Shown: one piece after another, positions 1 through 48,522 of the stretch
Layout: each line of letters opens with the position of its first letter
Position numbering within the stretch: the first letter of the stretch is position 1
Assembly (NCBI GenBank): GCA_000002445.1
Contig: CH464491.1
Location: 1 to 64,000, forward strand
Origin: Trypanosoma brucei
Lineage: Eukaryota
Direction: 5' to 3'
Length of the DNA stretch: 64,000 bases
The notes under the pieces: generated by a model
Told to the model about the DNA's origin: nothing
The model's database searches: none
The model's input: only the letters and a program-made list of their open reading frames with translations
Made by a program: the position numbers and the translations under genes

Positions 1-285
1 TACCCCTAACCCTAACCCTAACCCTAACCCTAACCCTAACCCTAACCCTAACCCTAACCCTAACCCTAACCCTAACCCTAACCCTAACCCTAACCCTAAC
101 CCTAACCCTAACCCTAACCCTAACCCTAACCCTAACCCTAACCCTAACCCTAACCCTAACCCTAACCCTAACCCTAACCCTAACCCTAACCCTAACCCTA
201 ACCCTAACCCTAACCCTAACCCTAACCCTAACCCTAACCCTAACCCTAACCCTAACCCTAACCCTAACCCTAACCCTAACCCGAA
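1..285. repeat. Telomere: tandem (CCCTAA)n on + strand, i.e. the TTAGGG G-strand is on the - strand running toward position 1; window position 1 is the chromosome terminus side
   Basis: About 47 perfect CCCTAA hexamers read directly from positions 3-282 before the unit changes to the 29-bp repeat. Confidence 0.97.
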
Positions 286-1578
286 CCCGCTAACCCGAAA
301 CACCCTAACCCGAACCCGCTAACCCGAAACACCCTAACCCGAACCCGCTAACCCGAAACACCCTAACCCGAACCCGCTAACCCGAAACACCCTAACCCGA
401 ACCCGCTAACCCGAAACACCCTAACCCGAACCCGCTAACCCGAAACACCCTAACCCGAACCCGCTAACCCGAAACACCCTAACCCGAACCCGCTAACCCG
501 AAACACCCTAACCCGAACCCGCTAACCCGAAACACCCTAACCCGAACCCGCTAACCCGAAACACCCTAACCCGAACCCGCTAACCCGAAACACCCTAACC
601 CGAACCCGCTAACCCGAAACACCCTAACCCGAACCCGCTAACCCGAAACACCCTAACCCGAACCCGCTAACCCGAAACACCCTAACCCGAACCCGCTAAC
701 CCGAAACACCCTAACCCGAACCCGCTAACCCGAAACACCCTAACCCGAACCCGCTAACCCGAAACACCCTAACCCGAACCCGCTAACCCGAAACACCCTA
801 ACCCGAACCCGCTAACCCGAAACACCCTAACCCGAACCCGCTAACCCGAAACACCCTAACCCGAACCCGCTAACCCGAAACACCCTAACCCGAACCCGCT
901 AACCCGAAACACCCTAACCCGAACCCGCTAACCCGAAACACCCTAACCCGAACCCGCTAACCCGAAACACCCTAACCCGAACCCGCTAACCCGAAACACC
1001 CTAACCCGAACCCGCTAACCCGAAACACCCTAACCCGAACCCGCTAACCCGAAACACCCTAACCCGAACCCGCTAACCCGAAACACCCTAACCCGAACCC
1101 GCTAACCCGAAACACCCTAACCCGAACCCGCTAACCCGAAACACCCTAACCCGAACCCGCTAACCCGAAACACCCTAACCCGAACCCGCTAACCCGAAAC
1201 ACCCTAACCCGAACCCGCTAACCCGAAACACCCTAACCCGAACCCGCTAACCCGAAACACCCTAACCCGAACCCGCTAACCCGAAACACCCTAACCCGAA
1301 CCCGCTAACCCGAAACACCCTAACCCGAACCCGCTAACCCGAAACACCCTAACCCGAACCCGCTAACCCGAAACACCCTAACCCGAACCCGCTAACCCGA
1401 AACACCCTAACCCGAACCCGCTAACCCGAAACACCCTAACCCGAACCCGCTAACCCGAAACACCCTAACCCGAACCCGCTAACCCGAAACACCCTAACCC
1501 GAACCCGCTAACCCGAAACACCCTAACCCGAACCCGCTAACCCGAAACACCCTAACCCGAACCCGCTAACCCGAAACA
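283..1578. repeat. Subtelomeric 29-bp repeat array (unit CCCTAACCCGAACCCGCTAACCCGAAACA, ~45 near-identical copies), a telomere-derived repeat of the kind adjacent to T. brucei telomeres
   Basis: The unit was read off directly and is essentially perfectly repeated from 283 to ~1578. The last unit ends ...cccgaaacaGCGAGCC. Confidence 0.9.
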
Positions 1579-2600
1579 GCGAGCCTTGAGTGTCGAACAA
1601 AAATAGCCGCAAAAAAAGACGCTGTCGGGCGATAGGAAAAAAAGCTGTTAAAAATTTTAACAATGGTGAAAAATGTGCAAAAAATCAAAGTCCAAAAAAA
1701 ATTTTTAAAAACTGGGAGGCGAAAAAAAAAAACAGTCAAAAATTCAAATTCGAAACAAGTAAAACAAGATTTTAAAAAAGCTAGACGCGAAAACCGATGT
1801 TAAAAATTAAAAATTAAAAAGTGGAGGTGCGTGCGCGTCGGGGGGCGGGGGGGAGGAGGGTTAGGGTCCGCATAACAAAATTGCCGCTGCATGGCTGAAA
1901 AAAAAATAACCAAAAACCAAAAAATTAAATAAAGATTAGGAAAAAAAAATTAAAAAAATTCAAAGGCCAAAAAAAAAAAATTAAAAAAAAGAGGTGCGTT
2001 TGCGGGGGGTGCGCGGGGGGCGGGGGGGAGGAGGGTTAGGGTCCGCATAATAAAATTGCTGCTGCATTGCTAAAATGAAAAAAATTAGCAATTTAAAAAA
2101 AATGTGAAAAAATTCGAAATGAAAAAAAAAAAATTGAACGTCAGGGCGAAAAAAAAGTGGAGGTGCTTGCGCTAAAAAAAAATAATAAATCGTGAAAAAA
2201 AACTGGAGGTGTCGCGGCGGCGCTGGGGGTGCGGGGGGGGAGGAGGGTTAGGGTCTGCATAACAAAACAGCCGCTGCACCGCTAATTTAAAAAAAAAAAT
2301 GTAAGCAAACAAACCGTCAAAAATTCAAATGCAAAAAAGTCTAAAAACAATGCGAAAAATTAAAAAACAGGTGCGGGGGGTGCGCGGGGGGCGGGGGGGG
2401 AGGAGGGTTAGGGTCCGCATAACAAAAGAGCCGCTGCATGGCTTTAAAAAAAAAAAACCACAAACCGCGCAAAAAACCGAAAACTAAAAAAAATGATTAG
2501 AAAAATGTATGAAAGAAAATCACATCGCAATAAAAAACAATAAAAGCAGCCGCTGCATCACTAAAAGACTAAAAAAACGAAAAAAAGAAAAGAGGAAAAT
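1579..2600. repeat. A-rich spacer containing 4 copies (plus one partial) of a ~75-nt G-rich element, core GGGGGGGAGGAGGGTTAGGGTCCGCATAACAAAA(N)GCCGCTGCA. Copies lie at ~1826-1896, 1993-2073, 2208-2285 and 2370-2445, with a partial at ~2548-2565
   Basis: The same GC-rich core, with embedded GGGTTAGGG, is seen four times at 160-215 bp spacing, separated by poly(A)-rich sequence. Confidence 0.6.
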
Positions 2601-2603
2601 TAA

Positions 2604-2720
2604 CCCTAACCGAGTAACCCTAATCCTAATCCTAACCCTAACCCTAACCCTAGCCCTAATCCTAAGCCTAACCCCCCTAACTAACCCCCCTAACTAACCT
2701 ACCTAACTACCCCCCCACCA
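2604..2720. repeat. Degenerate interstitial telomere-like tract (CCCTAA / CCTAAT / CCCTAG / CCTAAG variants decaying into CCCCCCTAACTAA units)
   Basis: Read directly: ccctaaccgagtaaccctaatcctaatcctaaccctaaccctaaccctagccctaatcctaagcctaacccccctaactaacccccctaactaacc. Confidence 0.7.
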
Positions 2721-2851
2721 CCTACAAAAATTAAAAAACGGGAAAAAAAAGAAAGAAAAAATTTTTTAGTTGCCAGAAAAAAAATTTACAGACTCAGAAT
2801 TTTTTACAAACTTACAAAACACACAGTTCAAATTTTTCGGTGGAATTTAAA

Positions 2852-2886
2852 GATGTTAAAATATATCAGAAGTTTTCAAGTAGCAA
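2852..2886 (-). promoter_or_regulatory. Conserved VSG 3'UTR elements: 16-mer (TGATATATTTTAACAT on - strand, one mismatch to TGATATATTTTAACAC) and the upstream 8/9-mer TTGCTACTT separated by GAAAACTTC
   Basis: The reverse complement of + 2852-2886 is TTGCTACTTGAAAACTTCTGATATATTTTAACATC. This matches, from memory, the conserved 3'UTR block of T. brucei VSG mRNAs, which is required for VSG mRNA stability. Confidence 0.85.
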
Positions 2887-2911
2887 AAATTTTAAAAAGA
2901 GGGGGTAAAAA

Positions 2912-4348
2912 TTAAAAAAGCAAAAATGCAAGCAAAAGAGGGGCTTTGTTAATGACAAAAGAATTGCTTGCTGTGGTGTTTGTAGTTCCAGGTTTCTCAT
3001 CTTTCCCTTCTGTTTCTTGGTTTGCTTTTTCTGCTGCTTTTTGTTTCCCTTCCTCACTCAATGTGCACTTTGGTTCTTCTTTTTTTGTTTCATCATATTT
3101 GCATTTTTTGTCAGCATTGCATGTTTTTGCATCTTTTATTTCGTTACATAGTTGCTCTGGGGTTTTATTTTTACCCTTGGATTCAGTGTCATCCAATCTT
3201 GTTTGTAGCTCTGTCAATCTCTTGCTCAGTTGCAATTGGTAGTGATACAGTATTGTAAGTAGCGTCTCTGTATCTTCTATTGCCCCCAATGTCGTTGGCT
3301 CAGCTTGTTTGCCTGTTTTGGCGGGTATCGGAAATTTCTCAATTTTTGCTATGAACTCTTTCCACTTTGCGTCGTCTTTTCCGCCAAAGTAAGAGGTCAC
3401 TTGTGCCTCTACATCTGCGTCGGCTGCCTCTGCTTTTTTAAGGTTGACTGTTCTGATCGCTTCGCTGACTAAGTTGTAATTTTTGATTTCGCCAGTAGTG
3501 TTGGTGAAGGCTGGATCCTCTGCTTGCGGTGGGAGCTTGTTTTTCGACCATGCGTTGTACCACGCCGGGTGCGTATTGGCGTGCTCTTGGGTCATTGTTT
3601 GTACGCTGTTTATGCTCAGCGCGTTGGCGCTGTTTGGAATTGTTAGGTAGCCGTCTAGCACCTTGAAGTTTGCTGCCAGCGCTGAGCCGTCTCCTAGGCC
3701 ATTGTTTGTGTGGCCGCTGGCAAGTGTGCACTTCCCGCTTGAGTGCTGTTCGTCGTCTCCGGATATCCTATGCGCCAGCTGGGGAAAGCCGTTGGCAGTT
3801 ATATGGGTTGGTTGTATGCCGCTGCTGCTTGCCCCTGTTAGTTTCAGTTTGCATTCCGTGCCGCCAAGCCTGTTTTGAGTTATGGTCGCCGCCGCTGACC
3901 CGGCATTTGTTAGCAGGCAGCCGTCGCTGCCGCCTTGGTTTACGTTAGACCATAACGATAAGTATTCATCTACATGCCCTTTGAGGTACGTTGCCGCGCT
4001 TGCGGTTTCGATGGCTGCTTGTATTGACGTTGTCCTTAGTTTAGAAAGGGAGGCCTGCACCTTGCTGCTGTAGTAAAGTTCTGCTAAAGCCGTTGGCGTT
4101 GCTTCTTTTGTTCCTGCCATCGCTAAGCCATAAATTTGTGCCCTCAGGGTGGCGCGCTGCATGAGTTCGACTTGGCTCGTTGCCGATTGTAGGTCTGAAA
4201 TTGCTTTGTGCGGTTTGCTATCCAGCTCTTCGGAGAGTCCACAAAGCGGTTTCCAGAAAGCTGGAAGCATCCCCTTTTGCGCCGTCGCGTCTACGGCCGC
4301 TAGTTGCTGCATTATTAAAAGCGCAACAGCAAACAAATAGTTGATCAT
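2912..4348 (-). CDS. VSG: Variant surface glycoprotein (VSG), 478 aa. N-terminal signal peptide (MINYLFAVALLIMQQLAAVDA), A-type N-terminal domain with 4 Cys, and a single 4-Cys C-terminal subdomain (CNEIKDAKTCNADKKCKYDETKKEEPKC). The 17-residue GPI signal NSFVINKAPLLLAFLLF follows a Ser omega site, which is class/type 2. A candidate spliced-leader acceptor AG lies at ~4435/4436 (- strand), preceded by a pyrimidine-rich tract at ~4459-4495
   Basis: Intact ORF. The canonical 3'UTR 16-mer and 8-mer lie immediately downstream. The GPI signal is almost identical to the type-2 VSG tail SNSFVI(H/N)KAPL(F/L)LAFLLF. It is transcribed toward the telomere. Confidence 0.9.
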   Translation of the reverse strand: MINYLFAVALLIMQQLAAVDATAQKGMLPAFWKPLCGLSEELDSKPHKAISDLQSATSQVELMQRATLRAQIYGLAMAGTKEATPTALAELYYSSKVQASLSKLRTTSIQAAIETASAATYLKGHVDEYLSLWSNVNQGGSDGCLLTNAGSAAATITQNRLGGTECKLKLTGASSSGIQPTHITANGFPQLAHRISGDDEQHSSGKCTLASGHTNNGLGDGSALAANFKVLDGYLTIPNSANALSINSVQTMTQEHANTHPAWYNAWSKNKLPPQAEDPAFTNTTGEIKNYNLVSEAIRTVNLKKAEAADADVEAQVTSYFGGKDDAKWKEFIAKIEKFPIPAKTGKQAEPTTLGAIEDTETLLTILYHYQLQLSKRLTELQTRLDDTESKGKNKTPEQLCNEIKDAKTCNADKKCKYDETKKEEPKCTLSEEGKQKAAEKANQETEGKDEKPGTTNTTASNSFVINKAPLLLAFLLF

Positions 4349-6119
4349 TGCTTGATTACCTTCGCCGGTGCTTGAAATTTACGAAGAGTGTCAAATCATG
4401 ATGTTGCAAGGATTGAACGGACATTTTTTTTAGCCTGCATCTCGCCGGTATGTTAGTTGTGTGAACAAAAGAAGAGAGCTGTAGAGCAGTAGCACCGTTT
4501 TTACTCTGTTTGTACACTGGCTTCTTACCAGGTTGAGTTGCTCGTAATCCATGTGCTGCTTAGCGCCTCTGCGATAGCCGTTGTAACTTCCATTACTTAT
4601 CCTGAAAACAATCTCTGCCTCATTTTCCCCTTCACCTATATGCTCTTCTAATGTTAAATACTTAGAATACCCCATAGGCGTGCCATAGCGCTTGTCAAAA
4701 GCGCACACCTTCTCGGAATCGACAGCCTTCCACCATTATGTTTCTCAAAATCAGTTCGGTTGCTAACTAAGGTCGTTGTCTTATTCAACGTTGTTGAAAA
4801 TTTAGTTACTTTGCCCGCCGTGCAATTTTTGTCGTTAGCGCATTCGGTTGTCGTCCTGGGTTGGTGTTGCTTGTGGTGGCGCCGTTTGTCACCGTAGAGC
4901 CACCTACAGAAAAAGAAACAAAAGGAGAAAAGTTAGAAATATAGAAGCTTCTGCGTTCTTTTCTGTTAAATGAAATTTAGAACAGACTTTTCCTTTCTTT
5001 CTCCTGGATTAAGTAAAAGACACTCAGGTATGGCATAGAACTTTCACTTTAAAAGGTAATTTGTATCATTTTATATTTATGCCATCTAGAGTATCAATAA
5101 TTTCTACACTTCACTCTCTTCTACCATAATTCAAGATGCCTGTGCATTTTTCACTCGCCAAAATCATGTAACGCTGCCACTTTCTCGAATAAAATTGATC
5201 TTCTGTTTCTTATTGTTAATCATTTTGTTTCGGTGTAAGGCGCTTCGCAATAATACTATGTAATGTATGGCCCCAAAATTCTACCCTTGCTGTTTTTGTT
5301 CTGCTAATACTGGACGCTAGCTCTCCATTCGCTATCTTTATTATGAAAACTACTCAATTATTAAATAAAATAATCTCTGGAAAACCCCTAGTAGGGAATT
5401 TAAGGCGTGTCACCATTGTTCCTTTCCTTTTTATAGCATTAGTGCGTAGGTTGATACATGTGCTATTTCAAGCAGGTTCAACGTCTTTGTTCCTCTTTTT
5501 CTGTAAATAATAATCCATTAGCAATCCCAGGTATTAAATCCGCGTAGCGACCATATTATATAGAAGCTATCAAGTGTTAGTCATTATTACTATATCTGAT
5601 TAAAAGATATTTTGACATTACCTCACACTTAGCCAATTCTTTCTTGTTGTTACTGCTTCTCACATATACATATTAAGATCTACAATCAGATTGAAAACAT
5701 CATTGTACACCATCTCTACAGCAGAATATATCCATTTCTGCTGGGGATAGGGCGTATTGTGTCATCCTTCTATATTATCTTTTCTATACGACGCTGTCAT
5801 ACATAGAGGTTTCATTCCATTTTTAATTGCTTTTTTTACCGTCTACTGTCATTTTTTGCAAATAAAGTAGCGGTCCTATTTAGGCTGTACACTGGATTTT
5901 CTCTCTCCATCATTTTCTTTTCTATCACTTCCTTGTGTGTAATAATTCCCATATTCTATTTACATCTCTTTATATATGTCTATTTGTGTTTCATTTAATA
6001 CTATTTCTCGTGCTCTCCTTCATACTGTCCCACACACATATTCCCATCGCACACTTTCCAATTTTAAAGTGCCCCTACTGTTTCCGATCGTTCAGTCTTC
6101 AACAACACTCTTAACATAA

Positions 6120-6562
6120 TATTAGTATGTACACACTCATAATACTCTCCTATTATTATTATTATTATTACTGCTCTTATTATAATATTCGTATATACAC
6201 ACACTCACAACACTCTCCTATTATTATCATTATTATTATCATTATTATTATTATCATTATTATTATTACTGCTCTCATTATAATATTCGTATATACACAC
6301 ACTCACAACACTCTCCTATTATCATTACTATCATCATTATTATTACTACTCTTATTATAATATTCGTATATATACACTCACAACACGCTCCTATTATTAT
6401 TATTATTATTATCATTATTATTACTGCTCTTATTATAATACTGGTGTATACACACTCACAACACTCTACTATTATTATCATTATTATTAGTATAATTATT
6501 ACTGCTCTTATTATAATATTCGTATATACACACTCACAACACTTTCCTATCATCATTATTAC

Positions 6563-6595
<33 letters not shown>

Positions 6596-6670
6596 TGCTC
6601 TTATTATAATATTCGTATACTCACACTCACAATACACTCCTATTATCATTATTATCATTATTATTATTAT
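6120..6670 (-). repeat. 70-bp repeat array: about 7 imperfect units of 70-95 bp, each a (TAA)n/(TTA)n triplet run followed by GAGTGTTGTGAGTGTGTGTATATACGAATATTATAATAAGAGCAGTAAT on the - strand
   Basis: The unit recurs at ~6127, 6195, 6290, 6365, 6445, 6520 and 6600. Its orientation matches that of the VSG, as in expression sites and silent VSG cassettes. Confidence 0.85.
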
Positions 6671-7994
6671 TTTAGAACACCCGTGTCAAGGGCATATAAA
6701 ATAGCTATGAAAATATCTTTTCTAAAAACGTTATTGATTATTTGGATGAATAAGCAAAATGGCACGTATTCTAACGCCTTTTGTATGATTGTTGTGGAGA
6801 ATAACCCTGTATGGAAAAGAAACAAGTGCACATATGAAACCTTCCGCCAATATTAACTCTCTGATCTTGCGTCACACTCCTCTTCAATTCTCTCCAGTTT
6901 TAGCGAATATTTGCATTTTGTGTGAACCCACACTCATCATAAATGTTATATGTCGCTTTGGAATTTCCTGCTGTTAAACTTCGTCAGTAGTGCGTCCACA
7001 TTTTTTACTTTTGCACAGAAAAACCGATGCGAGTATACCATCAACTTTTAAATAGTTTTTAAAAAAAACTGTGATTATGGTTTCAAAATCGTTGGAGAAC
7101 TTTTATGATTCTTAAGTCATGGGTGCCGAAAAACATGAGAAATGAAAGTCAACCTTCTCTTTCTTTTTAGTAAAAAAAAACTAGCCTTTTTCATTTCCCT
7201 AATGTGCTTCCGCGATCCACAATCTGCTCAAGAAACTTCTGAGGTCATCACCAGTATTTCTCTATCATCCTCTGTAAGGTTAGTTGCAAATTAAAAGCCC
7301 CTCGACTTCAAATCTTACAGCAAACTTTCCTCCATTCTAAGGTCTTTACTGCGTGTGAGTTCGAGCACAGAGTCTTGCTAAACACTTAATTTCTTGTAGC
7401 TATTTTTTGGGTTTGACAAGTCTTCTCGCCATGTTAAGTCCGTATGTCTCTCTTTTTCACATCTGCTCCATCAATCTTGAAATGATTCGTCAGCTAAACT
7501 GCTGCTACAATGACTTTCTATGGATTTATAAAAAAAATTGCACTATTTGCGGTGCGAACCGTACCGGACCCAATGCCCAGCATCAACATTGATAAGAAGG
7601 TTATCTAATTCTTTCTCAGAAGTATTAAAAGTTTAGCATCCAACCACTTTTTTTTTACCATTTATATCCGTTGCGCACTGTTAATTCTACCACAAAAACG
7701 GTAGAAAGCAATACAGAACTTCAGCAATTCGTCAGTAGCAGACCGATGATGTAGCCATTACCGAAAGCGCAATTAGTTGTATAAAAGGTAATTAGAGCCA
7801 CCGTTGTCACTACCAGAACCCCCGCTGTTGCCCCTCGACCATGTTTTCGCAGTTGTTCACGCATTCAGCATTACTTACCCCAAACAAATGAGAAACATTC
7901 CGTGATATTCGTCTGTCGGTGCTTGCGTTCCGATCAGTAGCCGCCGCAGGTGTTACATTTTCACTATCTTCCGTGGGTTGCGGCATCATGAACA

Positions 7995-8420
7995 CCCTGG
8001 CGATGCCGGCCACCTCAACGTGGTGCCAGAGTCCAGTACCCCGTATAATCGGGGGAAGCCAAGAGCCAGCAGCGTTCCTTTCATGGGGAACACTGCTTTG
8101 CTCCGGCTACGGCATCATACAGCACAGGGATCAGCAGCGTCTTGCTGGGACATCTTTGTTCATTTTCGGTGCCTGGGCACGTGCCAGCGTGCCATCAGCA
8201 GTATCATCCGCACTAAGATGCTGCTGTCCGGTGATGTGGAAGAGAATCCCGGCCCGTCGTTGCGCGGGATGCAGTGGAACTGCGCCGGGCTATCTCAAGA
8301 AAAGAGATTAGCATCTTGGACACCGGAGAGATGTATTTGCGGTGGCCAAGATGCTAATCCAAAGGATAATGGAGACTCTGCTTTGCGTTTGGACCGACGT
8401 CAACTTTTTTGTATTTGAAA
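7995..8420 (+). mobile_element. ingi: 5'-terminal fragment of an ingi-type non-LTR retrotransposon. The Pr77 hallmark 5' end is CCCTGGCGATGCCGGCCACCTCAACGTGGTGCCAGAGTCCAGTACCCCGTATAATCGGGGGAAGCCAAGAGCCAGCAGCG. Reading continues past the RIME breakpoint into an in-frame 2A-like peptide, DVEENPGP, at ~8236-8262. The 3' limit is uncertain
   Basis: Near-identical in inverted orientation to 10265-10512. The Pr77 and 2A-like motifs are characteristic of trypanosome ingi/L1Tc elements. Confidence 0.7.
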
Positions 8421-10009
8421 TAGTCAGTAGTATGATTTTTACCTTATCCCTCGCTTCTTGGTATAACTCTCGTTTTTGCGTCAAGAATCTCCCCTTAAGC
8501 ACATTTGGTTGGGTAATGGGGTTCTTCCGGCGAAGTACGCAAGTTGGGTTCTAACATGGGTAAACTTGGAAAGTAGGATTTGTGCCGACAACTCTTCACG
8601 GCGCGCATTGGTTTGATTCCCTCAGGAAGCCTATCTTCACCTGATCTTCCTCATTTCAGCGGCTCCAGAAATTGCCACTTTACAAAAACGAGGCAAGAAC
8701 GGCCAAGCAGTATTTTTGGATTAGGCTTGGGATCAGCTCAGGCCATTTCCGGGCAAATGACAGACCACATATCTCCGATCTTTTATAGGCTTATGGCGAA
8801 AGAGGAATGTAGAATTGTTGTCGTAACCAAAAATGCTACGGTAAAAATGCCGCTTCCAACCACCCCGCAGGCAATGGGGACAGCGACAGATAAAACCACC
8901 CGATTTGTTACACTACAAGAAGCGTGATAAATGCAACCGGTAACATACGTGTGTGGCTGCATGTTTGAAGTGAAATGGGTGGCGCCCAACTCTCTGGTGA
9001 GCAGTGGCTTCAACAGGCATCTTTTTCATAGTGCCATTTTGTGTGCCAGAACAGGTCCGAATGTACGTGAACGCACTCTGTTTTTTATCTTGCGGTTGGT
9101 AATGCGCAGTCCATTAGCCCTGAAACTGCCTCCTGCAAATAAGTTCACCATTGAAGAGGGCGTGGGCGCCAGAAGGGCCCCGTGGACGAAAGGAAAGGTG
9201 GAAATCGCTAACAAAATACTGTACCCCGCGGCTGCGGACTTGAAACCACCGGTAAAAACAGTTGCATTCACAGACCATACCTTCGTACATTGACAAAATG
9301 ACTTGTTAAGCGACCGGGCCAGGTCAGTTCGGTTGACGGACAACCTGTAGGTCCGACACTTGGAGCTAACGGAAAACGCGTCACTCACATTTTTTTTTTT
9401 TTAAAAGGCACCTGTATAACAGATATTCGAAAATCAGCCTTAAAGTTTTATGAAGGACAAACATCTTTAAACAAAAGATGCTGAAGAGCGCGATGGACGT
9501 CACTGCACGCCACCCCTTAGAGGCCAATTGCTGTCTTTTGTTAATTTTTAGTTTGGGGAATTTGAAGAAACGGAGGGAAAGCACTGAATTTCACTTCACG
9601 AGTATCCGCCATTATGAATATAATGAACACACCCCTTCTCCGAGAGTTCGCGTTGGACAACGAAACATAGGAAAAGGAAATTCCAAAAAAAAAAAGGACC
9701 ACTATATGCAAAATAAAAATGAATATTTTAACGAAACTGGAAACTATTTTATACTGCCTCGGAATGGCAAATTTTTTGCTTTCTCGGGAGGGTAGGTTTA
9801 TATTTTCCGCGAGGGTAATCGGTTTTTTTTACGTGTTAAAACAAGACCATATTTTTGACTGCCGTTGGAACTAGTTTTTGTGTCGATGTAGAACTAAGAA
9901 TAGGCTAATAGAAAGGAAACATGTCTTTCATACCGCAGTCTCTGTACTTTCTTGTGTGTCCCACAAAAGAATTTCTAAAATTTTGGCACTACTACGGAAT
10001 CGAGGTAAA

Positions 10010-10512
10010 TTATTTTTTTTAATTTTCTTCGTGCCTTCGTGAGAGTTTCCCCCCACTGGCGCGGCCATCAGCCATCACCGTAGAGCCCTGAGATGCTATC
10101 GGTCTGGCAACTGTGGCAGAGTCTCCCTTTTTCATTCATCCTAACACACTCTCTATATTTTTTGTTGTAGCTCCGCAGATGAACGGAATACAGCAGATGG
10201 GGCGAGAAACCTCCCACCCTGGACTCTCCCGAAGATGCCAATCGGCAATCCTTTTTTTTGGAGTTCCACATCACCGGACAGCAGCATCTTAGTGCGGATG
10301 ATACTGCTGATGGCACGCTAGCCACGTGCCCAGGGACCGACAAATGAAGAACGGTGTCCCAGCAAGACGCTGCTGATCCCTGTGCTGTATGATGCCGTAG
10401 CCGGAGCACAGCAGTGTTCCCCATGACAGGAGCGCTGCTGGCTCTTGGCTTCCCGCGATGATACGAGGCTCTGGACCCTGGCACCACGTTGAGGTGGCCG
10501 GCATCGCCAGGG
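10010..10512 (-). mobile_element. RIME: RIME (about 500 bp). About 248 bp of the ingi 5' end (Pr77) is joined at ...CCGGTGATGTGGAA| to about 240 bp of the ingi 3' end, ending in a short poly(A) (poly-T on the + strand at ~10024-10031)
   Basis: The 5' half aligns to the + copy at 7995-8250 and then diverges exactly where the RIME breakpoint is expected. The total length is ~500 bp. No unambiguous target-site duplication could be read. Confidence 0.75.
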
Positions 10513-13315: not shown

Positions 13316-14235
13316 TTAGGAGCAAAGGAAGCATAGTGCAGTGGAAAGCACCACTGTATGACTTTTGTGCGCAGCACTTCTCCCCCATTTTACACTGCTT
13401 TCTGCGGACTCCTGCCCATCCAAATTGCCTGTGCCCACCTCCCGTGCATTTTCCCTGTCAGGCCCCGATGTTAAGCTGCTCAGTTGCGGCCGCGTCACGT
13501 GGCTGTTATCATGGTGTGTTATTTGCAGTCCTGAAATATCTTCTCCGTTTTCGGTCGGTTGTCCCCCTAAAGTTCCCACTCCTTGTGTATCTTTTTGCCC
13601 AGGTCCCGGTGCTGCATCCGCTGGCGGTGGCTGCGCCACACTCCAGCTATCGTGTCCTGGCACTTGCGTCCCTGAAATTGTATTTCCTCCTTTTCCAAGT
13701 TCTCCGCTTTGGCCTTCCGAAGCTCCCGGTTCCTGTCCTCTTTGAACCACTTTCTGCTCACTGCCTTCACCCGCTGGGGACGTCGCGGCGGCAGTACTTG
13801 GGAGATTTCAGATGTGTGCGCGATGTGATCGTTTCTTGCGCTTCCAACTACTCTATCTTGTGGTTTTACGCCCACTTTAGGAAAGTCTTCTTTAGAGCCT
13901 GAAATCGATTGACTAGCCCCCTCCGCAGCCGAACCCGGTGTAGTACTCTTTTGTGTTCCTAGCTTCCCGGTGTCTTCGGACGTCGCACTTGCTGGATGGC
14001 TGTTACGAGATAAGGGAGAAGTAGGCTGTCTTCCCGCACTGCTTGGACCGACAGCGCTTTCACTTTGCGAAGAACAGTGGTGGTTATTTGAGCGGTCCCA
14101 GTATCCGTCGCACTTGCTGTTTTCGGTTGTTAATTGTATTGAAGCTTCCGGTTCAGCAAATAAAACAAGCAATAACAGCGTCAAAAATGGAACTGTTGCA
14201 AGTCCGAGCATCGTTTTCTTAAGAGGTTCAGACAA
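13316..14235 (-). pseudogene. Frameshifted member of a two-gene family of low-complexity predicted secreted/GPI-anchored proteins. The N-terminal 222-aa frame is 13567..14235: a signal-peptide-like MLGLATVPFLTLLLLVLFAEPEAS, then ...CDGYWDRSNNHHC..., then a Ser/Thr/Pro-rich region. The C-terminal hydrophobic tail (...HKSHTVVLSTALCFLCS) lies in a different frame, 13316..13750
   Basis: The two overlapping minus-strand ORFs together mirror the single intact paralog at 20125-20964, so a frameshift or sequencing error splits this copy. Confidence 0.5.
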
Positions 14236-17200
14236 AAATTATGCAAAGCAACACTAAAAGCAAAAAAAAAACAACAAACATGTATCAATCTATTCACGTC
14301 ACACGATAAAAAATTATTATCAGACTCGGAATTAGAACAAATAAAAATTAATATGTTACATGTAGTTACGATTGCTTCCTCGCATGAAGAGGTTTCAGAG
14401 AGATTATGAACGTCCCTTACATCACCTCAAGCGCCTTTTCACTACATTTTTTGATATTATGTAGACGTGTCGGTGCATTTGAATACTGCCTTTACACGTC
14501 TTTCTTTTAATGCTACTCAGGGGCATCTCATGATTTCTTATTTTACAAATTCACCGCTACTAAGAGCAACTAAAAGCAAATTAGACAATATGTCTTTTGG
14601 CAACTTCATCTTTCTATCAACTTAATAAGAAGACATACATTTAGTACATTTTTTTAGATCGGAGATGAAAGGTGTTGTTAATGTTTCCTTTATCGTACGT
14701 CCGCAGTTCCTTTGCCGCTCCAATGTGGTTGGGTTAAATCGTCGTTTCAGTTAGTTGCTGCAGCCATAACTATATATATATTTTTTGCTCTCTCTTCTTA
14801 AATACTCTAACCAAGTTTCCAAGGATAGGTTTCGCTACTCCTGTCTCTTGTGCTTGAATTGGCCCAATTGTAAGTTGCGCAAAATTCACGGTTTGTGTGA
14901 ATGCAACGCGTTTGCCTTAATATGCTTGTTTTCCCATATTCAATAACAACAATATCAGCATATGCATTTTTTATTTTAAAAATTATAATGTTTTTTCACT
15001 ATTTAGCTTCGTTTGCCTTCCTGTAGTTTTCGCTTTGATCAACTTGTCCAACTACCTATAGGTGCAAGCACATTCTTTCTATTTTAAAAGCATCGAAGTT
15101 TTCCACTTTATGCACCTTATTTAAAAGACATAAAAAACACCACTTCTTTGTTATCTCTACAATGTCTTCTGCGCTTGTGCGTTGATGACAGTTTTATTTT
15201 ATTAAGGTTAAAAAGTAAATAGTGAGCCAGTGTACACAACCAAAAGAAAAGTATTGGTATAAATTGTGGAATAATTATGGCAGAAATCCGTCCTTTTGTT
15301 GTTCTTGTGATTAAACCCGTCTTAGTTCTGATAGTTGTTTGCTCATTCGGGTTTTCGTTTATTCTTGTTTTTGTGGTTCGTCTGATCCCTTTGTTGATAA
15401 TTTTCTTCTCGCGCTTGACGTTAAGTTTGTATTTGCGTTGGTGGCTGTGTCTATGTTTTGCCTATGGTGGCGTTTGTGTCAGCGTCTGCATTTTCGCTAA
15501 TTTCTTCAACTTTCAGCAGGTTTTCGAGATCCCCAAGTCATTTGACACAACTTGTACTGCCTTGAATTGACAGTTTTGGATATACCATACAAATCTCATT
15601 GGTTTTTGATTCCCGTCCATCGCAGACGCTTAGCATCTTAGTTTTGTCCCCTCATTAGGTATGGTATTCACGACCACTTGATATTTGGCGTCTTTTTATA
15701 TCCGTTAATGGTAGTTTTCTCTTATCCCCAAATACAGTCAGCGTCTGCAGATCCTCTTTATGATCCATTTTCCATTTATTTTGAAACTCATTCCATGTAC
15801 TTCGTGGCTAGCAGAGGCCTTCCATATTGCATAGTCACATCATTCTGCATTTCCTGTATAATAAAAGTCTTTGCGTGGTGATTGTTGGCTTTCTCCCCGC
15901 ACAAACAGAGGAGGACTTCTAGAAAGGTTTTTCTTGTTGCGGTAGCCCTGTCTCGATTGTCTTTCCCACAGTCCAGTTCTCTGTATCGGTTCCTTACTAT
16001 TTCAGTTAAATCATCACTGTTTGATCAAAACATGATATCTTTAACCATTTCCCCAGGGAAGCTGCTTCTGCGACCTCCTTCACTCTTTTAATCGACCCGC
16101 CTATACGCTGTGTTAAACTAACAAGTTCACATAGTGGTTTAAACTCCTCCTCGTTAACTATGCCTTCCCCCGCGATGTACACATACGCCACTACCCAAAG
16201 CATGTCTGTCATCTATGCCGCTGATTTGTTCCATATTTTTGTTCTGCCTCCGCTAACTAGACTTCTTTTTAAAGGATTAGTTGAGAAAAAAATAAGTTTT
16301 TTTCTACCCATTTTGCTCCCAAAAAAGTTTCAAGCAAAGCATGCTCATACACATTTCTATTGAGAAGGCTATCTTCCTATTCTAGATATTTTTAATTGAA
16401 TAGTTGGCACTCCTTGATGAACTCGTATTTCGTGCCCTGTAGGAGTCGTGCCATTAAGATTTTGCAGTAAATACGCCGAGCCCACTCACAGGTACTAGAG
16501 GCACAAGGACTAGTCCCACATATAACCGTACAATTTTATTAACAATACTGCCAGATATTTTGGGTTGTTAGTCCTGCGTCGTGGTGACGAGTTCAGTGGA
16601 ACCCAGTTCGGGACTCTCACGGTTATTTCCGTGGAGCAAGCACGGAAGTGCGGCAACACTTGATGCACTTTTCAACCCTAAAGATATTACGTTTTCCTCG
16701 TGTGAAGGCAACTGTTTGTGTTAGTTGGTTCTCAACGTCAAGTAAAAATTGAGTTGCTATTATTTTTTTTTTCGTTGATCACAATTTATAGCAGCGTGCC
16801 GCCTTCCGATCCAGAGCAGCAGCAAAGACTTCCCAGAACCAGGCGCACCAACATGTGATGCGTTTCCGCTTTGTATACACTCATCCAAGTGGGCATGCTC
16901 CATTGTTGAGTGAATTAAATGTTTGAAGCTCCTACGCATCGAACAGTTTCCACACAAGTAAAATATTTCACCGCATTAGGGCAATAATAAGCACAGGCAC
17001 AACATTTCAGCAAAAGCTCAGTGACGATTTTTCCCAACTTTAGTATCTGAGAATAAGGTATGCTTCCTATGCTTTATTGAGTCGGGTTATCATGTCATCC
17101 AGCGAAGCAAATTAATGCCGGAAGTGATAAAATTGGGTGTTCATTTTATGAGCGGCGACTTTCGCACCCGTTGGTACTATTTCATTTTCCTCTAATATTG

Positions 17201-20124: not shown

Positions 20125-20964
20125 TTAGTAACTCAGGAGGCATAACGCTGCAGAAAGTATCATTGTATTCCTTGTATGTGCAACGCTTCTTCTCCCTTGT
20201 GTACTGTTTTCCGTCGAATCATGTTCCTCCAGATCGCTTGTAGCCGCTTCCTGTTTACCTCCCTGATCAGGCTCCGAGACTGCGCTCCTCGGTTGTGGAT
20301 GCGCTAGACCCTCACCACTTTCCCTTGTTAGCGGTGGTGGTGTGGTGTTCCTTCCCTGCCTCTGCCCTTCATGACTTTCACTTCCACGATCTCGTTTTTC
20401 ACCTTCAGACACTTCGTTTGCTCGCACGGTTGCCTGTCTGCTTTCTTCTACCTCTGTGGTTGCTGGCTCCTCACGCAAAGACAGGCCAACTGGTCCGTCG
20501 CTCCGCTCGACCTGCCCATCAATTCCAGTGGCACTCGCGGCGTCACTTTGTGGCTGACCCTCTTGAGGGGCACCCAAAGAACCAGACCGTGTTCCGCTGG
20601 AAATGCTTAAAGCTGGAGATGGCACCTGCCTTCCTCCATGCTGGGCGCCGGTTGCGCTGCCACGTACTTCTCGTCTTTCCGTTTGCGGCTGCAGAACAGG
20701 GAGTTGGGGAGACGCATCTCCACTAGGCCGATCCTGACGTGAAGGCAGCAATGAACACGGCACCCCTTTGCCGTCACGGTCCCAATATTGAATGCATCCG
20801 CTTCCGGACGAAACCGCTACCCCCACTACACTCGTTGTCGCGGAAGCGCTTCGCGACTCAGCTGGCAGGAGACACGTTATAAGTGTCAGCAACAGCACTG
20901 TTGTATTTTTGAACATAGTGTCACTTAGCTTGTTAACGCACAAAATTACACAAAACACTAACAA
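20125..20964 (-). CDS. Paralog of 13316-14235. A predicted secreted Ser/Gly/Pro/Glu/Gln-rich protein. Its probable start is the Met at ~20916 (MFKNTTVLLLTLITCLLPAESRS signal peptide). It carries the conserved motif C-IQ-YWDRDGKGVPC and a C-terminal hydrophobic GPI-signal-like tail (...NTMILSAALCLLSY). The family is unidentified. An ESAG9-like relationship is a guess only
   Basis: It shares its N-terminal signal, the CxxYWDR(x3-5)C motif, the low-complexity middle and the C-terminal hydrophobic tail with the upstream copy. Confidence 0.5.
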   Translation of the reverse strand: MLVFCVILCVNKLSDTMFKNTTVLLLTLITCLLPAESRSASATTSVVGVAVSSGSGCIQYWDRDGKGVPCSLLPSRQDRPSGDASPQLPVLQPQTERREVRGSATGAQHGGRQVPSPALSISSGTRSGSLGAPQEGQPQSDAASATGIDGQVERSDGPVGLSLREEPATTEVEESRQATVRANEVSEGEKRDRGSESHEGQRQGRNTTPPPLTRESGEGLAHPQPRSAVSEPDQGGKQEAATSDLEEHDSTENSTQGRRSVAHTRNTMILSAALCLLSY

Positions 20965-36911: not shown

Positions 36912-36930
36912 TATATATATATATATATAT
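36912..36930. repeat. (TA)n microsatellite. Similar runs lie at ~38286-38308, ~42967-42978 and ~62397-62414
   Basis: Read directly. These are typical intergenic dinucleotide runs. Confidence 0.9.
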
Positions 36931-37085
36931 AACATGAAATTATTGGCTTTATTTGCACGACAAAATATATAATTATTTAGACATGTATCATAACACGCGT
37001 ACTTATGAGACTTCATATAATGGGAATAGTTACAAACAATGTTCCGAATGTGGGGTAAAAGATGATGATGATGATAATGGCACGA

Positions 37086-37451
37086 CTATCGCAGTAGAAC
37101 GCACCAAAAGAAGATCAAAACGAAAAACACCACAACCCCAATTAAAAGTGTGTGGCGGAATCCATAACGTTGCACCACCTCTCCGATACGACCCACAGAC
37201 CGATTGACACCACTCGATGCACGCGAGAAGGCGGAACCCACGAAAGAAAGCATTTGATTTTGTTCTTCCACCTCTTGTCGTAATGTATCTGCGGAAGTTT
37301 TCACTTTAGCTGCTGTATTACCCAAAGCGTTCAACAGAGCCTCATTCTCCTTCACGAGATCTTCTTCAAATTGCGCACGCTTCTCAGCACTTAAATCATC
37401 AGATTGTTTTTCCAAACGTTGTCCACCAAAGACGGTGGATCTCATTTCCAA
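37086..37451 (-). CDS. Small tail-anchored Qc-SNARE of the Bet1 family (121 aa). The SNARE heptad carries a central Gln (...RQEVEEQNQMLSFVGSAFSRASSGVNRSVGRIGEV...) and the C-terminal TM is LLIGVVVFFVLIFFWCVLL
   Basis: Pattern match, from memory, to metazoan Bet1 ([30 protein letters not shown]). Orientation and spacing are consistent with the polycistron. Confidence 0.6.
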   Translation of the reverse strand: MEMRSTVFGGQRLEKQSDDLSAEKRAQFEEDLVKENEALLNALGNTAAKVKTSADTLRQEVEEQNQMLSFVGSAFSRASSGVNRSVGRIGEVVQRYGFRHTLLIGVVVFFVLIFFWCVLLR

Positions 37452-38948
37452 AGTGATAGATGTAAGTATTTACCCTCAGCTTGTAAGTAAAGAATCGCAA
37501 TACACAAAAACACGCGCACACTTTTTTATTATCGTACACGAGTTCCGTGAAAAAACGTTCGCTAATTTCTATGACAGGCAAAGAGCAGCGCCCACCGGAA
37601 ATAAATTGTCTTTTCTTTCCCTTTTTAAATGTGTAGAAGCAAATATGTTTTTTTTTGTTCTTCCATTTCACAGCCCAACAACAACAACAAAAAGAGATAT
37701 ATGGTAGCAATTGCGCTCACAATAAGTAACATCATAGCAGAGGACAAGAATGATTGTAATTGTGTTTGCACATATATAAACGTAAATATATATATATTTC
37801 TTTCCCTCTTAACAGGCATTCCTCAGAATCCTTCCGTTTCGATAGCACACACAAAAAAAAAAAGCATCGGTTTGTCATCGCAGACGTTACGATTTCATCA
37901 TGCGCCGGCAGCCAATGTTGCGTCGTTTCATCCGCCGCTTTTTGTCGTGTTCCATACGTATTTCTATACGATAGGGACGTTTAACGTTATATCCCATTCC
38001 ACCAACAAATGTTCTCTTGAGAAACTGTGACCAAAGCGCCAGCGATGGAGTAAACATAAGTAACTACCCTTTTTTTTTGCTTTTGCTTTTTTCTTTTTTT
38101 TTTTCACCGCTGACGGTGCGGCTGCTTCGACTATTTTTTTTTTTTTGTGTACGCCTCCGATACTTATTTTACATGAAATTTTTGGCAGGACAATGCGAAA
38201 TGTACCAATTTTTTTTTAAAAAAATAAAAATGCAACAAGGGGGAAAAAAGAAAACATAATGAAATAAATACGTATACTTACATATTATATATATATATAT
38301 ATATATATTTACATATTTGTATCAACAACAACAAACATAGTTATGGCGAATGCTTTTGGTAGTGTCGTTGAGGGTGACACGACGCGTGAAGTGAAATGCA
38401 AATATATATATAATATATTAAAATAAACTGTTATTTGCATTTATATTTCCTTATAGGGAAGGGAAGGTGCAGACACATGGACAGGGATAATTCTTCCTTC
38501 AAGTGTTCGGTGCCTCATGCAAATTACGAAATATTTATCGCAGTTCTACACAACCCCAACAAATCAAACAAAAAAGCAAGCACTAACATATATCCATTTT
38601 GTTTTTCTCTAATTGTTTCTTTTTTTTTTCCGAGTAAATTAAAAAAAAAGGAAAGTGGAAATCAAGACGAAAACAATAACAACAGTAACAAAAAAAGGGG
38701 TACAATCCTTCCATCCAACCATTATGTGAACCCCTACAACTCTACCCTTCCTGTTTTCTTATCACTTTCTTTTTTTTTCAAATTTAAACATTCATTTTTC
38801 GTTCCTAATTTACTTCCGTTACGGGAGTTCCGACACGCTGCAAATTATAAAACATAACCAAAACGGAGTGAAGGCGATGAACCGGCTTTGTCATTTTCCC
38901 GTTGCTGGTCATTTGAAACGCTTCGTCAAAAAACTCCACTTCCGGAAT

Positions 38949-39179
38949 TCACTCAACCACACCGCCCCTATGGGAAGTAATGGTAAAATATATTTGAACC
39001 ACCGTTGAACCGAGAACAATAAATAAAATTGTTGCACCAAGCCAACTGGGCAATGCAGAGGCATTTTCACGCTTCTCGCGTAGTTTTTTCTTTTCCTCAT
39101 CAGAGAGTCGTGGCATGCTGATTTGGCTGTTTTGCTTCTGCGCCTTAACGCGAATCATCCTTGTAGGGCTTAAAGGCAT
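38949..39179 (-). CDS. RAMP4/SERP (stress-associated ER protein)-like tail-anchored mini-protein, 76 aa (...EEKKKLREKRENASALPSWLGATILFIVLGSTVVQIYFTI...)
   Basis: Resembles SERP1 (...[30 protein letters not shown]...). It has a single C-terminal TM and the same strand as its neighbours. Confidence 0.55.
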   Translation of the reverse strand: MPLSPTRMIRVKAQKQNSQISMPRLSDEEKKKLREKRENASALPSWLGATILFIVLGSTVVQIYFTITSHRGGVVE

Positions 39180-39514
39180 TTTTTTTTTAAAAAAAATTTT
39201 TTGTTTTGTGTGTCGGGGTTGCTCCGGCTTAATTCGGTTCTAAAAAAAAAACTTAAAATCTACTATTGATGGAATAGGAAGCGGAAATAACCGTCGATGA
39301 TAATGACAATCAAGAAAAGAAAAAAAAAGAAGGGATCATCGAACACACACATGCGTGACAGAACACGGACAGAAAAGTAGGCATTATATGATGATGAAAT
39401 GCAACGACAAACCATGACAAAGCACTGCGGTAAAAACAAAAAAATTGTAATAAATACTTCTTCACAATAGAAGAGGATTAATAAAAATGCATTGAAGCAG
39501 GTGGCAGTGTCAGC

Positions 39515-41029: not shown

Positions 41030-41366
41030 ATAAAGTGGGGTCAGTTGCTCACATTTGGAAAGGAATAAAAGGTGACGAAAATCGTAGAAGCATGACGAGA
41101 AGGAGAGAAATAAAAGAAAAAATAAAGAAGAAATGGTGTCCCCACCGGTATTTTATATAATGAACTATGTTTATGGACACTACAAAGGATCCATAGAACG
41201 ATAACACAAAAAAAGGAGGCATTCGAACGCAAATTTTCCCTCCTTGTACCTTTCATATCCCATTGCTTCCACATTTACACATGCACGAAAACACACGTGT
41301 GCACGCACCCAATTTGATTTTCCCTCACTGCCGTCAAGAAATTGGTTTCTCACCCTCCGCAGAACA

Positions 41367-45085: not shown

Positions 45086-45383
45086 GTAACATGAATAATA
45101 TACACCACATATACATGTTTATTTGTGAAAAATGGGGGGGGAAATGTTTAATAATTAAGTAGATGAAAAAAGAAAGAAAAAGAGATACGCAGCAGATATA
45201 TTAAAAGCGGAAAACACTCAACAAGGGTGGTCATAATGCATGTGGTAACGCATGCCCAACAATGGATAATTAAGAAAAGACGGAAGAAGGAAGGCACATG
45301 TCGTAACTTTGGTTTAGTAATTACTCATTACGCGCTGACTCAAACGCACTTCAACAACATTAAGGGATACCCACAACACTCAT

Positions 45384-45779: not shown

Positions 45780-46015
45780 ACCTATGCTCTCACCTTCGCC
45801 GCGTACAAGACAAAAGAGATATGATCGAATGTCCCAATTGTGTCAATACTGAAGGGGGAAAAAAAAGTAAAATAAATTTTAAAATATGGTCCATCATAAT
45901 TAGTATACACACACATACACATGCACGTACTTTCTAAAAAAAAAAGAAGAATAGTGTTGTAAAACTTCAACGGTGTACGGTAGCGAGAGAAGGTAGACTT
46001 TCCGAAATGTTAAGA

Positions 46016-48304: not shown

Positions 48305-48522
48305 ACGGTTTTCGACTCAACAAAACGGGAAATTAAAGGTGAAAATCACATTCATTCGCCATAGATTCCCAAGGTGCATTTTTTTTAAAAAAGAAGGTTT
48401 CAAACTCCTTAACAATGACGAAGCCGTGGATACGTCCAGCGTGCTGGGTATGGGAAAGTAATACCGTACAACACCCCTTCCAATCAAAACCGTAGCTACT
48501 ACCTGTTCTGCCTCCCCAACCT

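What the first reader, a model, noticed from the sequence alone, without database searches (positions are those of the whole stretch)
1..39500. Telomeric VSG locus without canonical ESAGs: candidate metacyclic-type or otherwise non-canonical VSG expression site
Reading inward from the telomere:
- an intact VSG with a perfect 3'UTR 16-mer/8-mer;
- only ~0.55 kb of 70-bp repeats;
- an ingi/RIME pair;
- two copies of an unknown secreted-protein gene;
- two GRESAG4 cyclase genes;
- then housekeeping genes.
No ESAG7/ESAG6 transferrin-receptor genes are present. No ESAG5, 3, 2, 11, 1 or 8 homologue was recognisable in any frame. A bloodstream expression site would carry all of these plus kilobases of 70-bp repeats. 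The lack of ESAGs, the very short 70-bp array and the proximity of ingi/RIME are the published hallmarks of metacyclic VSG expression sites (MES) on megabase chromosomes. Alternatively this is a silent telomeric VSG into which the core polycistron reads directly.
Basis: partly seen in the sequence, partly recalled or inferred. Interest (0 to 1): 0.7.

Follow-up and report, generated by a model that had tools for sequence, protein, structure and literature searches.

The report
Metacyclic-type VSG site, chromosome 11 end
This is the left telomere of Trypanosoma brucei TREU927 chromosome 11, and it has the known layout of a "metacyclic" surface-antigen expression site (one intact VSG gene, few 70-bp repeats, no ESAG genes next to it), but its promoter and its activity in the tsetse fly are not shown here.

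Summary
The window is the left end of T. brucei brucei TREU927 chromosome 11. The VSG is XP_828106.1, and five housekeeping proteins match TREU927 exactly.

- The 16-mer is 15/16, not perfect.
- The "ingi/RIME pair" is one RIME plus a truncated ingi fragment, in inverted orientation.
- The two "secreted-protein" genes are divergent paralogues, and one is frameshifted.
- GenBank names the cyclases "ESAG4, putative".

No ESAG family that Pfam can detect lies between the cyclases and the VSG.

Three new lines of evidence favour a metacyclic expression site (MES):
- The same chromosome end in Lister 427 (Chr11_5A) carries the characterised MES of VSG-653.
- The same tandem cyclase pair (CAA09951/CAA09952, 90-96% identical) was deposited in 1998. 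I believe, from memory only, that this was with the ILTat 1.22/1.61 MES clones.
- The only match in the window to a box shared by the MES-653 and bloodstream-ES "promoter core" primers lies 4.1 kb upstream of the VSG.

I could not settle which way that box points. It lies in a 2-kb segment bracketed by inverted RIME/ingi arms. Metacyclic-stage expression could not be tested.

Verdict: a known kind of locus, probably a MES. Interest is low to moderate.

The parts
4..288 (.). Telomere repeats (CCCTAA)n; this is the chromosome end
   Evidence: TRF: 47.5 copies, 99% match; sequence read
273..1578 (.). 29-bp subtelomeric repeat array, 45 perfect copies
   Evidence: TRF: 100% match
1579..2750 (.). 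A-rich subtelomeric spacer. It holds four copies of a ~108-nt G-rich unit and a degenerate internal telomere-like tract (2601-2716).
2853..2868 (-). VSG 3'UTR 16-mer, 15/16 (last base T instead of C). It is preceded by the conserved TTGCTACTTGAAAA block.
2912..4348 (-). Intact A-type VSG gene (478 aa) = XP_828106.1 / EAN78994.1 / Q387N7, read towards the telomere
4349..6107 (-). Co-transposed region between the 70-bp repeats and the VSG. Positions 5173-6168 are 95% identical to a T. equiperdum contig that carries a related VSG.
6108..6675 (-). 70-bp repeat tract, about 7 units, 568 bp
6676..7994 (.). Unique 1.3-kb spacer with no recognisable feature
7995..8405 (+). Truncated ingi-derived element: the 5' 247 bp shared with RIME, then the start of the ingi ORF (DVEENPGP), with no poly(A). 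It forms the left inverted arm.
8502..8525 (.). Only site in the window resembling the box shared by the MES-653 and BES 'promoter core' primers. Minus strand reads AGAACCCCATTACCCAACCAAATG. It is the candidate Pol I ES promoter element, 4.15 kb upstream of the VSG ATG. Orientation is unresolved.
8406..10011 (.). Unique 1.6-kb segment between the two retroelements. It contains the candidate promoter box and has no Pfam-detectable coding content.
10012..10512 (-). Complete RIME (5' half, 3' half and A-tail). It forms the right inverted arm.
13316..14235 (-). Paralogue 1 of a T. brucei-specific gene with a signal peptide and a hydrophobic C-terminus. The N- and C-terminal parts are in different frames, so it is probably a pseudogene.
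16009..16212 (-). Weak remnant resembling the N-terminus of a B-type VSG or ESAG2-like protein (below the Pfam cut-off)
20125..20916 (-). Paralogue 2 (263 aa from the first ATG), intact. It has one homologue (90% identity) among 5.8 billion proteins.
25133..28840 (-). Receptor adenylate cyclase copy 1 = EAN78995.1 'ESAG4, putative'. It is 96% identical to CAA09952.1.
31849..35583 (-). Receptor adenylate cyclase copy 2. Its N-terminus and central block match CAA09951.1. Two blocks are 98% identical to copy 1.
37086..64000 (-). End of the core Pol II polycistron (housekeeping genes), all read towards the telomere. It is collinear at 98.8% with T. equiperdum and 97% with T. b. gambiense.

Best explanation
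The locus is a metacyclic-type VSG expression site (MES) at the 5' (left) telomere of TREU927 chromosome 11.

Proposed working, all inferred by analogy with characterised MESs:
- The core Pol II polycistron, read towards the telomere, ends after the two cyclase genes and the small surface-protein paralogues.
- A short Pol I promoter lies in the retroelement-flanked segment near 8.5 kb.
- In salivary-gland metacyclic forms this promoter drives a monocistronic unit through the 70-bp repeats and the co-transposed region into the single VSG.
- In other life-cycle stages the unit is silenced by telomeric chromatin.

Shown here: the anatomy, the chromosomal position, the absence of detectable ESAGs, and one promoter-box-like site.
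Inferred: that the box is a functional promoter aimed at the VSG, and that the VSG is expressed in metacyclics.
For: 1. Identity and position. The VSG and five housekeeping proteins are exact TREU927 proteins on one 5.26-Mb record, and the window starts with telomere repeats.
2. MES anatomy. There is a single intact VSG, a 568-bp 70-bp tract, and no 50-bp repeats. No Pfam family was found in any ORF between the VSG and the cyclases.
3. ESAG-like genes only far upstream. This is what is reported for the MESs of strains J10 and 1738, where ESAGs lie upstream of the promoter, not downstream (PMC8939820 and PMC8863249).
4. Same chromosome end in another strain. In Lister 427 the MES of VSG-653 lies on Chr11_5A, with the VSG at 8094-9488(-) and the promoter at 11525-11461. 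All but one of the 427 MESs or putative MESs lie at 5' chromosome ends (PMC8034637 supplement; PMC6784898 supplement).
5. The cyclase pair. CAA09952.1 is 96% identical to copy 1 and CAA09951.1 has the copy-2-specific blocks. Their protein ids are adjacent, so the same tandem pair was cloned from another T. brucei stock. From memory, unverified, these belong to the ILTat 1.22/1.61 MES entries AJ012198/AJ012199.
6. The promoter box. The MES-653 'promoter core' primer CCTATAACCCGACCAAATA and the BES 'promoter core' primer ATATCCCTATTACCACACCA match each other at 12 of 15 positions (my hand alignment). Both have their best match at one and the same site, 8502-8525. In simulations the 653 primer finds 0.17 such sites per 61 kb, and a co-located double match occurred in 0 of 300.
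7. Distance. 4.15 kb from box to VSG ATG lies within the published 1.6-8 kb range.
Against: - No real MES promoter sequence or profile could be obtained. The promoter call rests on about 20 nt known only from qPCR primers.
- The other MES-653 primers and homology-arm ends have no counterpart here.
- If the BES reverse primer is antisense to transcription, which is the usual convention, the box in sense orientation lies on the + strand. It would then point away from the VSG.
- No second promoter element could be recognised.
- The 16-mer, reported as invariant in VSG mRNAs (PMC8483307), differs at its last base.
- No expression data for this VSG were reachable, and its closest relatives are not among the seven EATRO1125 metacyclic VSGs.
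- Savage et al. [quoted passage not shown]
Confidence: 0.55

Rival explanations
1. Disabled or decayed MES. The site was once a MES, but its promoter segment has been turned round, or otherwise broken, by recombination between the inverted RIME/ingi arms. The VSG is now a silent telomeric copy. It would be used only as a donor for gene conversion, or reached by weak Pol II read-through.
For: - The promoter-like box lies inside a 2.0-kb segment bracketed by 249-bp inverted arms of 93.6% identity.
- Under the usual primer-naming convention the sense form of the box (TTGGTTGGGTAATGGGG) is on the + strand, pointing away from the VSG.
- The left element is a truncated ingi, which suggests earlier rearrangement.
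- The 16-mer carries a substitution.
Against: - The orientation inference depends on unverified primer conventions.
- No target-site duplication pattern supports an inversion in either configuration.
- The VSG ORF is fully intact, which argues against long neglect.
- I know of no MES with an inverted promoter.
Confidence: 0.22
2. Never a dedicated expression site. [quoted passage not shown]
For: - All genes from 64 kb down to the VSG are on the same strand, so the polycistron points into the VSG.
- The box match alone has a chance expectation of 0.17 per 61 kb, or about 0.02 for the 6 kb upstream of the VSG.
- No second promoter element was recognised.
Against: - Positional equivalence with the Lister 427 MES on Chr11_5A.
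- The match coincides for two independent primer references at one site.
- In published work, telomeric VSGs on megabase chromosomes with short 70-bp tracts and no ESAGs are MESs.
Confidence: 0.15
3. Bloodstream-form expression site whose promoter and ESAGs lie further upstream.
For: GenBank names the two cyclases 'ESAG4, putative'.
Against: - No other ORF in the scanned stretch between the VSG and the cyclases hit PF00913, the family to which, from my knowledge, ESAG6/7 belong, and no other ESAG family was found.
- There is no 50-bp array and only 0.57 kb of 70-bp repeats.
- 25 kb of conserved housekeeping genes, collinear with T. equiperdum and T. b. gambiense, follow directly.
- The BES upstream primers have no match in the loci checked, and the BES core forward primer has no good match in the window.
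Confidence: 0.01

Closest known systems
Lister 427 metacyclic expression site of VSG-653 (Chr11_5A; Kolev 2012, Cross 2014, Muller 2018, Davies 2021)
   Same: - Same end of the same chromosome.
- Telomeric VSG read towards the telomere.
- No ESAGs between promoter and VSG.
- Its promoter-core primer finds its only match in the window upstream of the VSG.
   Different: - The VSG is different.
- The promoter-to-VSG distance is 2.0 kb in 427 against 4.15 kb here.
- The sequences flanking the promoter, known only from primers and homology arms, are not conserved.
- Here the candidate box lies between inverted retroelement arms and its orientation is uncertain.
ILTat 1.22 / 1.61 MESs of EATRO 795 (Graham, Terry and Barry 1999; AJ012198, AJ012199)
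   Same: Classic MES layout: few 70-bp repeats, a promoter a few kb upstream, and ESAG-like genes and retroelements further upstream. This much is from memory. Cyclases CAA09951/CAA09952, which I believe come from these entries, are 90-96% identical to the two cyclases here and show the same copy-specific blocks.
   Different: The link between those protein ids and the MES entries is from memory and was not verified. The VSG here is unrelated to ILTat 1.22 and 1.61, since neither appears among its homologues.
Bloodstream-form VSG expression site (BES)
   Same: Telomeric VSG, 70-bp repeats, the 16-mer region, and a shared promoter box motif.
   Different: No ESAG7/6 or other ESAGs, no 50-bp repeats, a 70-bp tract about ten times shorter, and housekeeping genes within 35 kb of the VSG.

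Membership tests
Metacyclic VSG expression site (MES) | [quoted passage not shown] | tested here: met
Metacyclic VSG expression site (MES) | Monocistronic: no ESAGs between the promoter region and the VSG | tested here: met
   No Pfam family in any ORF of at least 50 aa across 4349-25132. ESAG3, ESAG9 and ESAG11 are not covered by Pfam as far as I know.
Metacyclic VSG expression site (MES) | Short 70-bp repeat tract | tested here: met
   568 bp, about 7 units
Metacyclic VSG expression site (MES) | MES-type Pol I promoter within a few kb upstream, aimed at the VSG | tested here: inconclusive
   There is one box-like site at 8502-8525, matching the MES-653 primer with 4 mismatches in 19 and the BES primer with 5 in 20. 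The full promoter profile was not obtainable and the orientation is ambiguous.
Metacyclic VSG expression site (MES) | Expression of the VSG in salivary-gland metacyclic forms, silent elsewhere | not testable with these tools
   No TREU927 fly-stage expression data were reachable. The VSG is not related to the EATRO1125 mVSGs.
Metacyclic VSG expression site (MES) | Positional equivalence with a known MES | tested here: met
   Lister 427 MES-653 lies on Chr11_5A. The window is the chr11 5' end.
Bloodstream VSG expression site (BES) | ESAG7/ESAG6 and further ESAGs downstream of a BES promoter, 50-bp repeats upstream, kilobases of 70-bp repeats | tested here: not met
Functional VSG 3'UTR | Invariant 16-mer TGATATATTTTAACAC | tested here: not met
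   The window has TGATATATTTTAACAT. The related T. equiperdum copy has the canonical form.

The most novel reading that the evidence does not exclude
The ES-type promoter element is genuine but points away from the VSG. It sits on a 2-kb segment that recombination between the flanking inverted RIME/ingi arms has flipped, or can flip. That would be a retroelement-mediated inversion that disconnects, or toggles, a metacyclic VSG from its Pol I promoter.
Probability: 0.15. Interest if true: 0.65.

Novelty: new member of a known kind. Interest (0 to 1): 0.3.

Why it matters
- Metacyclic VSGs are the first antigens a mammal sees after a tsetse bite.
- Fly-stage transcriptome papers map reads to TREU927 while stating that its assembled chromosomes hold no metacyclic VSGs. 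If this end of chromosome 11 is a MES, the reference already contains one complete example joined to core sequence. That example could be followed directly in TREU927 fly infections.
- If instead the promoter is inverted or dead, the locus would show how retroelements retire an expression site.
- Either way the architecture is a known one, so the gain is modest.

Tried and rejected
Searches for a reference MES or BES promoter sequence:
- Ginger 2002, Kolev 2017, Graham 1998 (two papers), Gunzl 2015, Ramey-Butler 2015, Berberof 2000 and Brandenburg 2007 are not held.
- Muller 2018 gives only the coordinates of its nhmmer hits.
- The HMM of Kay 2022 is on Dryad.
- Nguyen 2014 has no supplement held as text.
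- Young 2008 aligns only the region downstream of the promoter.
- Only qPCR primers were recovered.

Attempts to fetch a BES or MES locus through proteins:
- The closest VSG relative in T. equiperdum lies on a 6.2-kb contig that ends in 70-bp repeats (L001).
- A second T. equiperdum VSG is in an array (L004).
- The 74%-identical cyclase of T. b. equiperdum is a paralogue elsewhere in the genome (L002).
- A cyclase on a Schistosoma contig carries no ES primer matches (L003).
- The DAL972 chromosome 11 record stops at its cyclase (L006).
- The T. equiperdum chr11 contig runs 16 kb further than I could fetch.

Other tests:
- Target-site duplications were checked as a test for inversion. None is recognisable in either configuration.
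- The BES forward primer, the MES-653 reverse primer and the homology-arm ends have no convincing counterpart.
- Searching the literature by the VSG's accession numbers found nothing.
- No tRNA or Rfam family marks the end of the polycistron.

Rejected: a BES reading.


Full report
**Origin.** An exact look-up places the window on a 5,261,801-bp record of Trypanosoma brucei brucei TREU927. The 478-aa VSG is EAN78994.1 / XP_828106.1. ETF-beta, a BipA-type GTPase, a ubiquitin C-terminal hydrolase, WDR19 and a mitochondrial carrier are also exact TREU927 proteins with consecutive accession numbers. The window begins with (CCCTAA)n. It is therefore the left (5') telomere of chromosome 11; the chromosome number rests on the record's length, on memory and on collinearity with the DAL972 record FN554974.

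**Anatomy, reading inward.**
- Telomere repeats at 4-288, then 45 perfect 29-bp subtelomeric repeats at 273-1578. Next comes an A-rich spacer with four G-rich units and a degenerate telomere-like tract.
- The VSG at 2912-4348(-). It has a full-length A-type domain (PF00913, E 3.6e-106), a C-terminal domain and a GPI signal.
- Its 3'UTR has the conserved TTGCTACTTGAAAA block. The 16-mer reads TGATATATTTTAACAT, one base off the canonical form.
- A 1.76-kb co-transposed region, then 568 bp of 70-bp repeats at 6108-6675, then a 1.3-kb unique spacer.
- A truncated ingi-derived element at 7995-~8405(+), a 1.6-kb unique segment, and a complete RIME at 10012-10512(-). The 5' parts of the two elements form 249-bp inverted arms of 93.6% identity.
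- Two divergent paralogues of a small T. brucei-specific protein with a signal peptide and a hydrophobic C-terminus. One is at 13316-14235 and is apparently frameshifted. The other is at 20125-20916 and is intact. The only homologue among 5.8 billion proteins is 90% identical.
- A sub-threshold B-type-VSG-like remnant at 16009-16212.
- Two receptor adenylate cyclase genes at 25133-28840 and 31849-35583. Two blocks of them are 98% identical.
- Housekeeping genes on the same strand out to 64 kb.

**Check of the 'no ESAG' claim.** I translated every stop-to-stop ORF of at least 50 aa on both strands of 4349-25132 and scanned them against Pfam. Nothing was found apart from the weak VSG_B hit. In particular there was no second PF00913 hit (from my knowledge ESAG6/7 fall in that family), no ESAG1, no LRR, no BT1, and no reverse transcriptase or endonuclease. 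TRF shows no 50-bp repeat array. ESAGs without Pfam models could not be tested. GenBank labels the cyclases 'ESAG4, putative', but they lie 21 kb upstream of the VSG, beyond the retroelements. This matches published MES contigs, in which ESAGs lie upstream of the promoter and not downstream of it.

**A bloodstream expression site is excluded.** From 37 kb onward the sequence is collinear at 97-99% with T. equiperdum and T. b. gambiense core sequence.

**Positional evidence.** The supplement of Davies et al. 2021 places the Lister 427 MES of VSG-653 on Chr11_5A. The supplement of Muller et al. 2018 puts its promoter at 11525-11461(-), 2.0 kb upstream of the VSG. Their profile search lists nine putative MES promoters in 427, which they read as eight MESs (one hit is probably an ancient, inactive MES); eight of the nine hits lie at 5' chromosome ends, and the promoter-to-VSG distances they state run from 2.4 to about 8 kb. 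The window is the same chromosome end in another strain.

**The cyclase pair.** The 90% cluster of cyclase copy 1 contains CAA09952.1 and CAA09951.1, both named 'adenylate cyclase [Trypanosoma brucei]'.
- CAA09952.1 is 96% identical to copy 1 over 1083 residues and shares its specific N-terminus and central block.
- CAA09951.1 carries the N-terminus (MYDMKADVEIVNSL...) and central block (QFASLRRGFF...) that are specific to copy 2.
- The protein ids are adjacent, so the same tandem pair was cloned from another stock.
- From memory, these ids belong to the ILTat 1.22/1.61 MES entries AJ012198/AJ012199 of the Barry laboratory. I could not verify this.

**Promoter.** No MES or BES promoter sequence could be retrieved. 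Only qPCR primers were available.
- The MES-653 'promoter core' forward primer (CCTATAACCCGACCAAATA) and the BES 'promoter core' reverse primer (ATATCCCTATTACCACACCA) agree at 12 of 15 aligned positions by my hand alignment. They therefore appear to cover one homologous element.
- In the window both have their best match at one site, 8502-8525. The minus strand reads AGAACCCCATTACCCAACCAAATG, with 4 of 19 and 5 of 20 mismatches. The degenerate core CCNATWACCNNACCA occurs only there in 64 kb.
- Markov-chain simulations give 0.17 chance sites per 61 kb for the MES primer. No co-located double match occurred in 300 trials, although the two references are not independent.
- The site is 4.15 kb upstream of the VSG ATG, inside the published range.

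**Orientation.** The Rudenko laboratory names its primers sense and antisense. If its BES reverse primer is antisense to transcription, the element in sense form is TGGTGTGGTAATAGGG. In the window that form lies on the + strand, pointing away from the VSG. The MES-653 primer would then have been designed on the contig's + strand, and that MES does lie on the minus strand. If the naming is the other way round, or if the promoter contains the box in both orientations, the element points at the VSG. Because the box sits in a 2-kb segment between inverted arms, a real inversion is physically plausible. No target-site duplications are recognisable in either configuration. I weigh these considerations at roughly 2:1 in favour of the box facing the VSG, given that it is a promoter at all.

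**Expression.** Nothing could be learned.
- The accession numbers do not occur in the searchable literature.
- The closest relatives of the VSG are an EATRO1125 archive gene (79% identity) and a T. equiperdum copy (76%) that follows another VSG 3' end.
- None of the seven EATRO1125 metacyclic VSGs is related beyond the common C-terminal domain.
- Savage et al. 2016 state that mVSGs are absent from the assembled TREU927 chromosomes. This locus seems not to have been treated as a MES in the literature I could search.

**Conclusion.** The interpretation as a metacyclic-type site gains real support from position, from the conserved upstream cyclase pair and from a single promoter-box-like site. 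The promoter's identity and direction, and stage-specific expression, remain untested. The kind of locus is well known. The only unusual possibility is that retroelement arms have inverted the promoter segment.

Noticed in passing
window 2853-2868 (-): The VSG 16-mer ends in T instead of C (TGATATATTTTAACAT). The related T. equiperdum VSG copy (L001 3346-3361) has the canonical 16-mer. The motif is described as common to all VSG mRNAs, so this variant might lower expression.
   Followed up: partly
window 7995-8241 and 10264-10512: The 5' ends of a truncated ingi and a RIME form 249-bp inverted arms (93.6% identity) around a 2-kb unique segment. That segment holds the only ES-promoter-box-like site. 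Inversion by recombination is conceivable, but no target-site duplications could be found to test it.
   Followed up: partly
window 13316-14235 (-) and 20125-20916 (-): Two divergent paralogues of a small protein with a signal peptide, a C..YWDR motif, a low-complexity middle and a hydrophobic C-terminus. The telomere-proximal copy is frameshifted. The intact copy is not in the protein collection as an exact sequence. Its only homologue among 5.8 billion proteins is 90% identical (P0037) and of unknown origin.
   Followed up: partly
window 16009-16212 (-): A 68-aa ORF weakly resembles the N-terminus of B-type VSG/ESAG2-like proteins (PF13206, E 0.001-0.004, below cut-off). It may be the last trace of a VSG-related pseudogene between the two paralogues.
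   Followed up: partly
window 25137-28467 vs 31856-35183: The two cyclase genes are 98% identical in two blocks, but differ in a ~200-bp central block and at the N-terminus. The same block pattern is seen in CAA09951/CAA09952 from another stock, so the mosaic predates the split between the strains.
   Followed up: partly
L003 (Schistosoma mansoni assembly GCF_000237925.1, NW_017386323.1) 2300-6064: A 17-kb scaffold of the S. mansoni assembly encodes a trypanosome-type receptor adenylate cyclase ('hypothetical protein Smp_112590', 52% identical to the cyclase here). This looks like trypanosome DNA contaminating that assembly.
   Followed up: no
L006 (T. b. gambiense DAL972 FN554974.1, first 13.8 kb): The DAL972 chromosome 11 record starts just beyond its single assembled cyclase gene (the counterpart of copy 2). 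It also holds the equivalent of window 38213-40875 twice, which is probably an assembly artefact. The telomere-proximal 31 kb of TREU927 has no counterpart in that record.
   Followed up: partly
window 273-2750: Between the telomere and the VSG there are 45 perfectly identical 29-bp repeats. They are followed by four copies of a ~108-nt unit with G-runs ending in GGAGGGTTAGGGTC, and by a degenerate internal telomere-like tract at 2601-2716.
   Followed up: no
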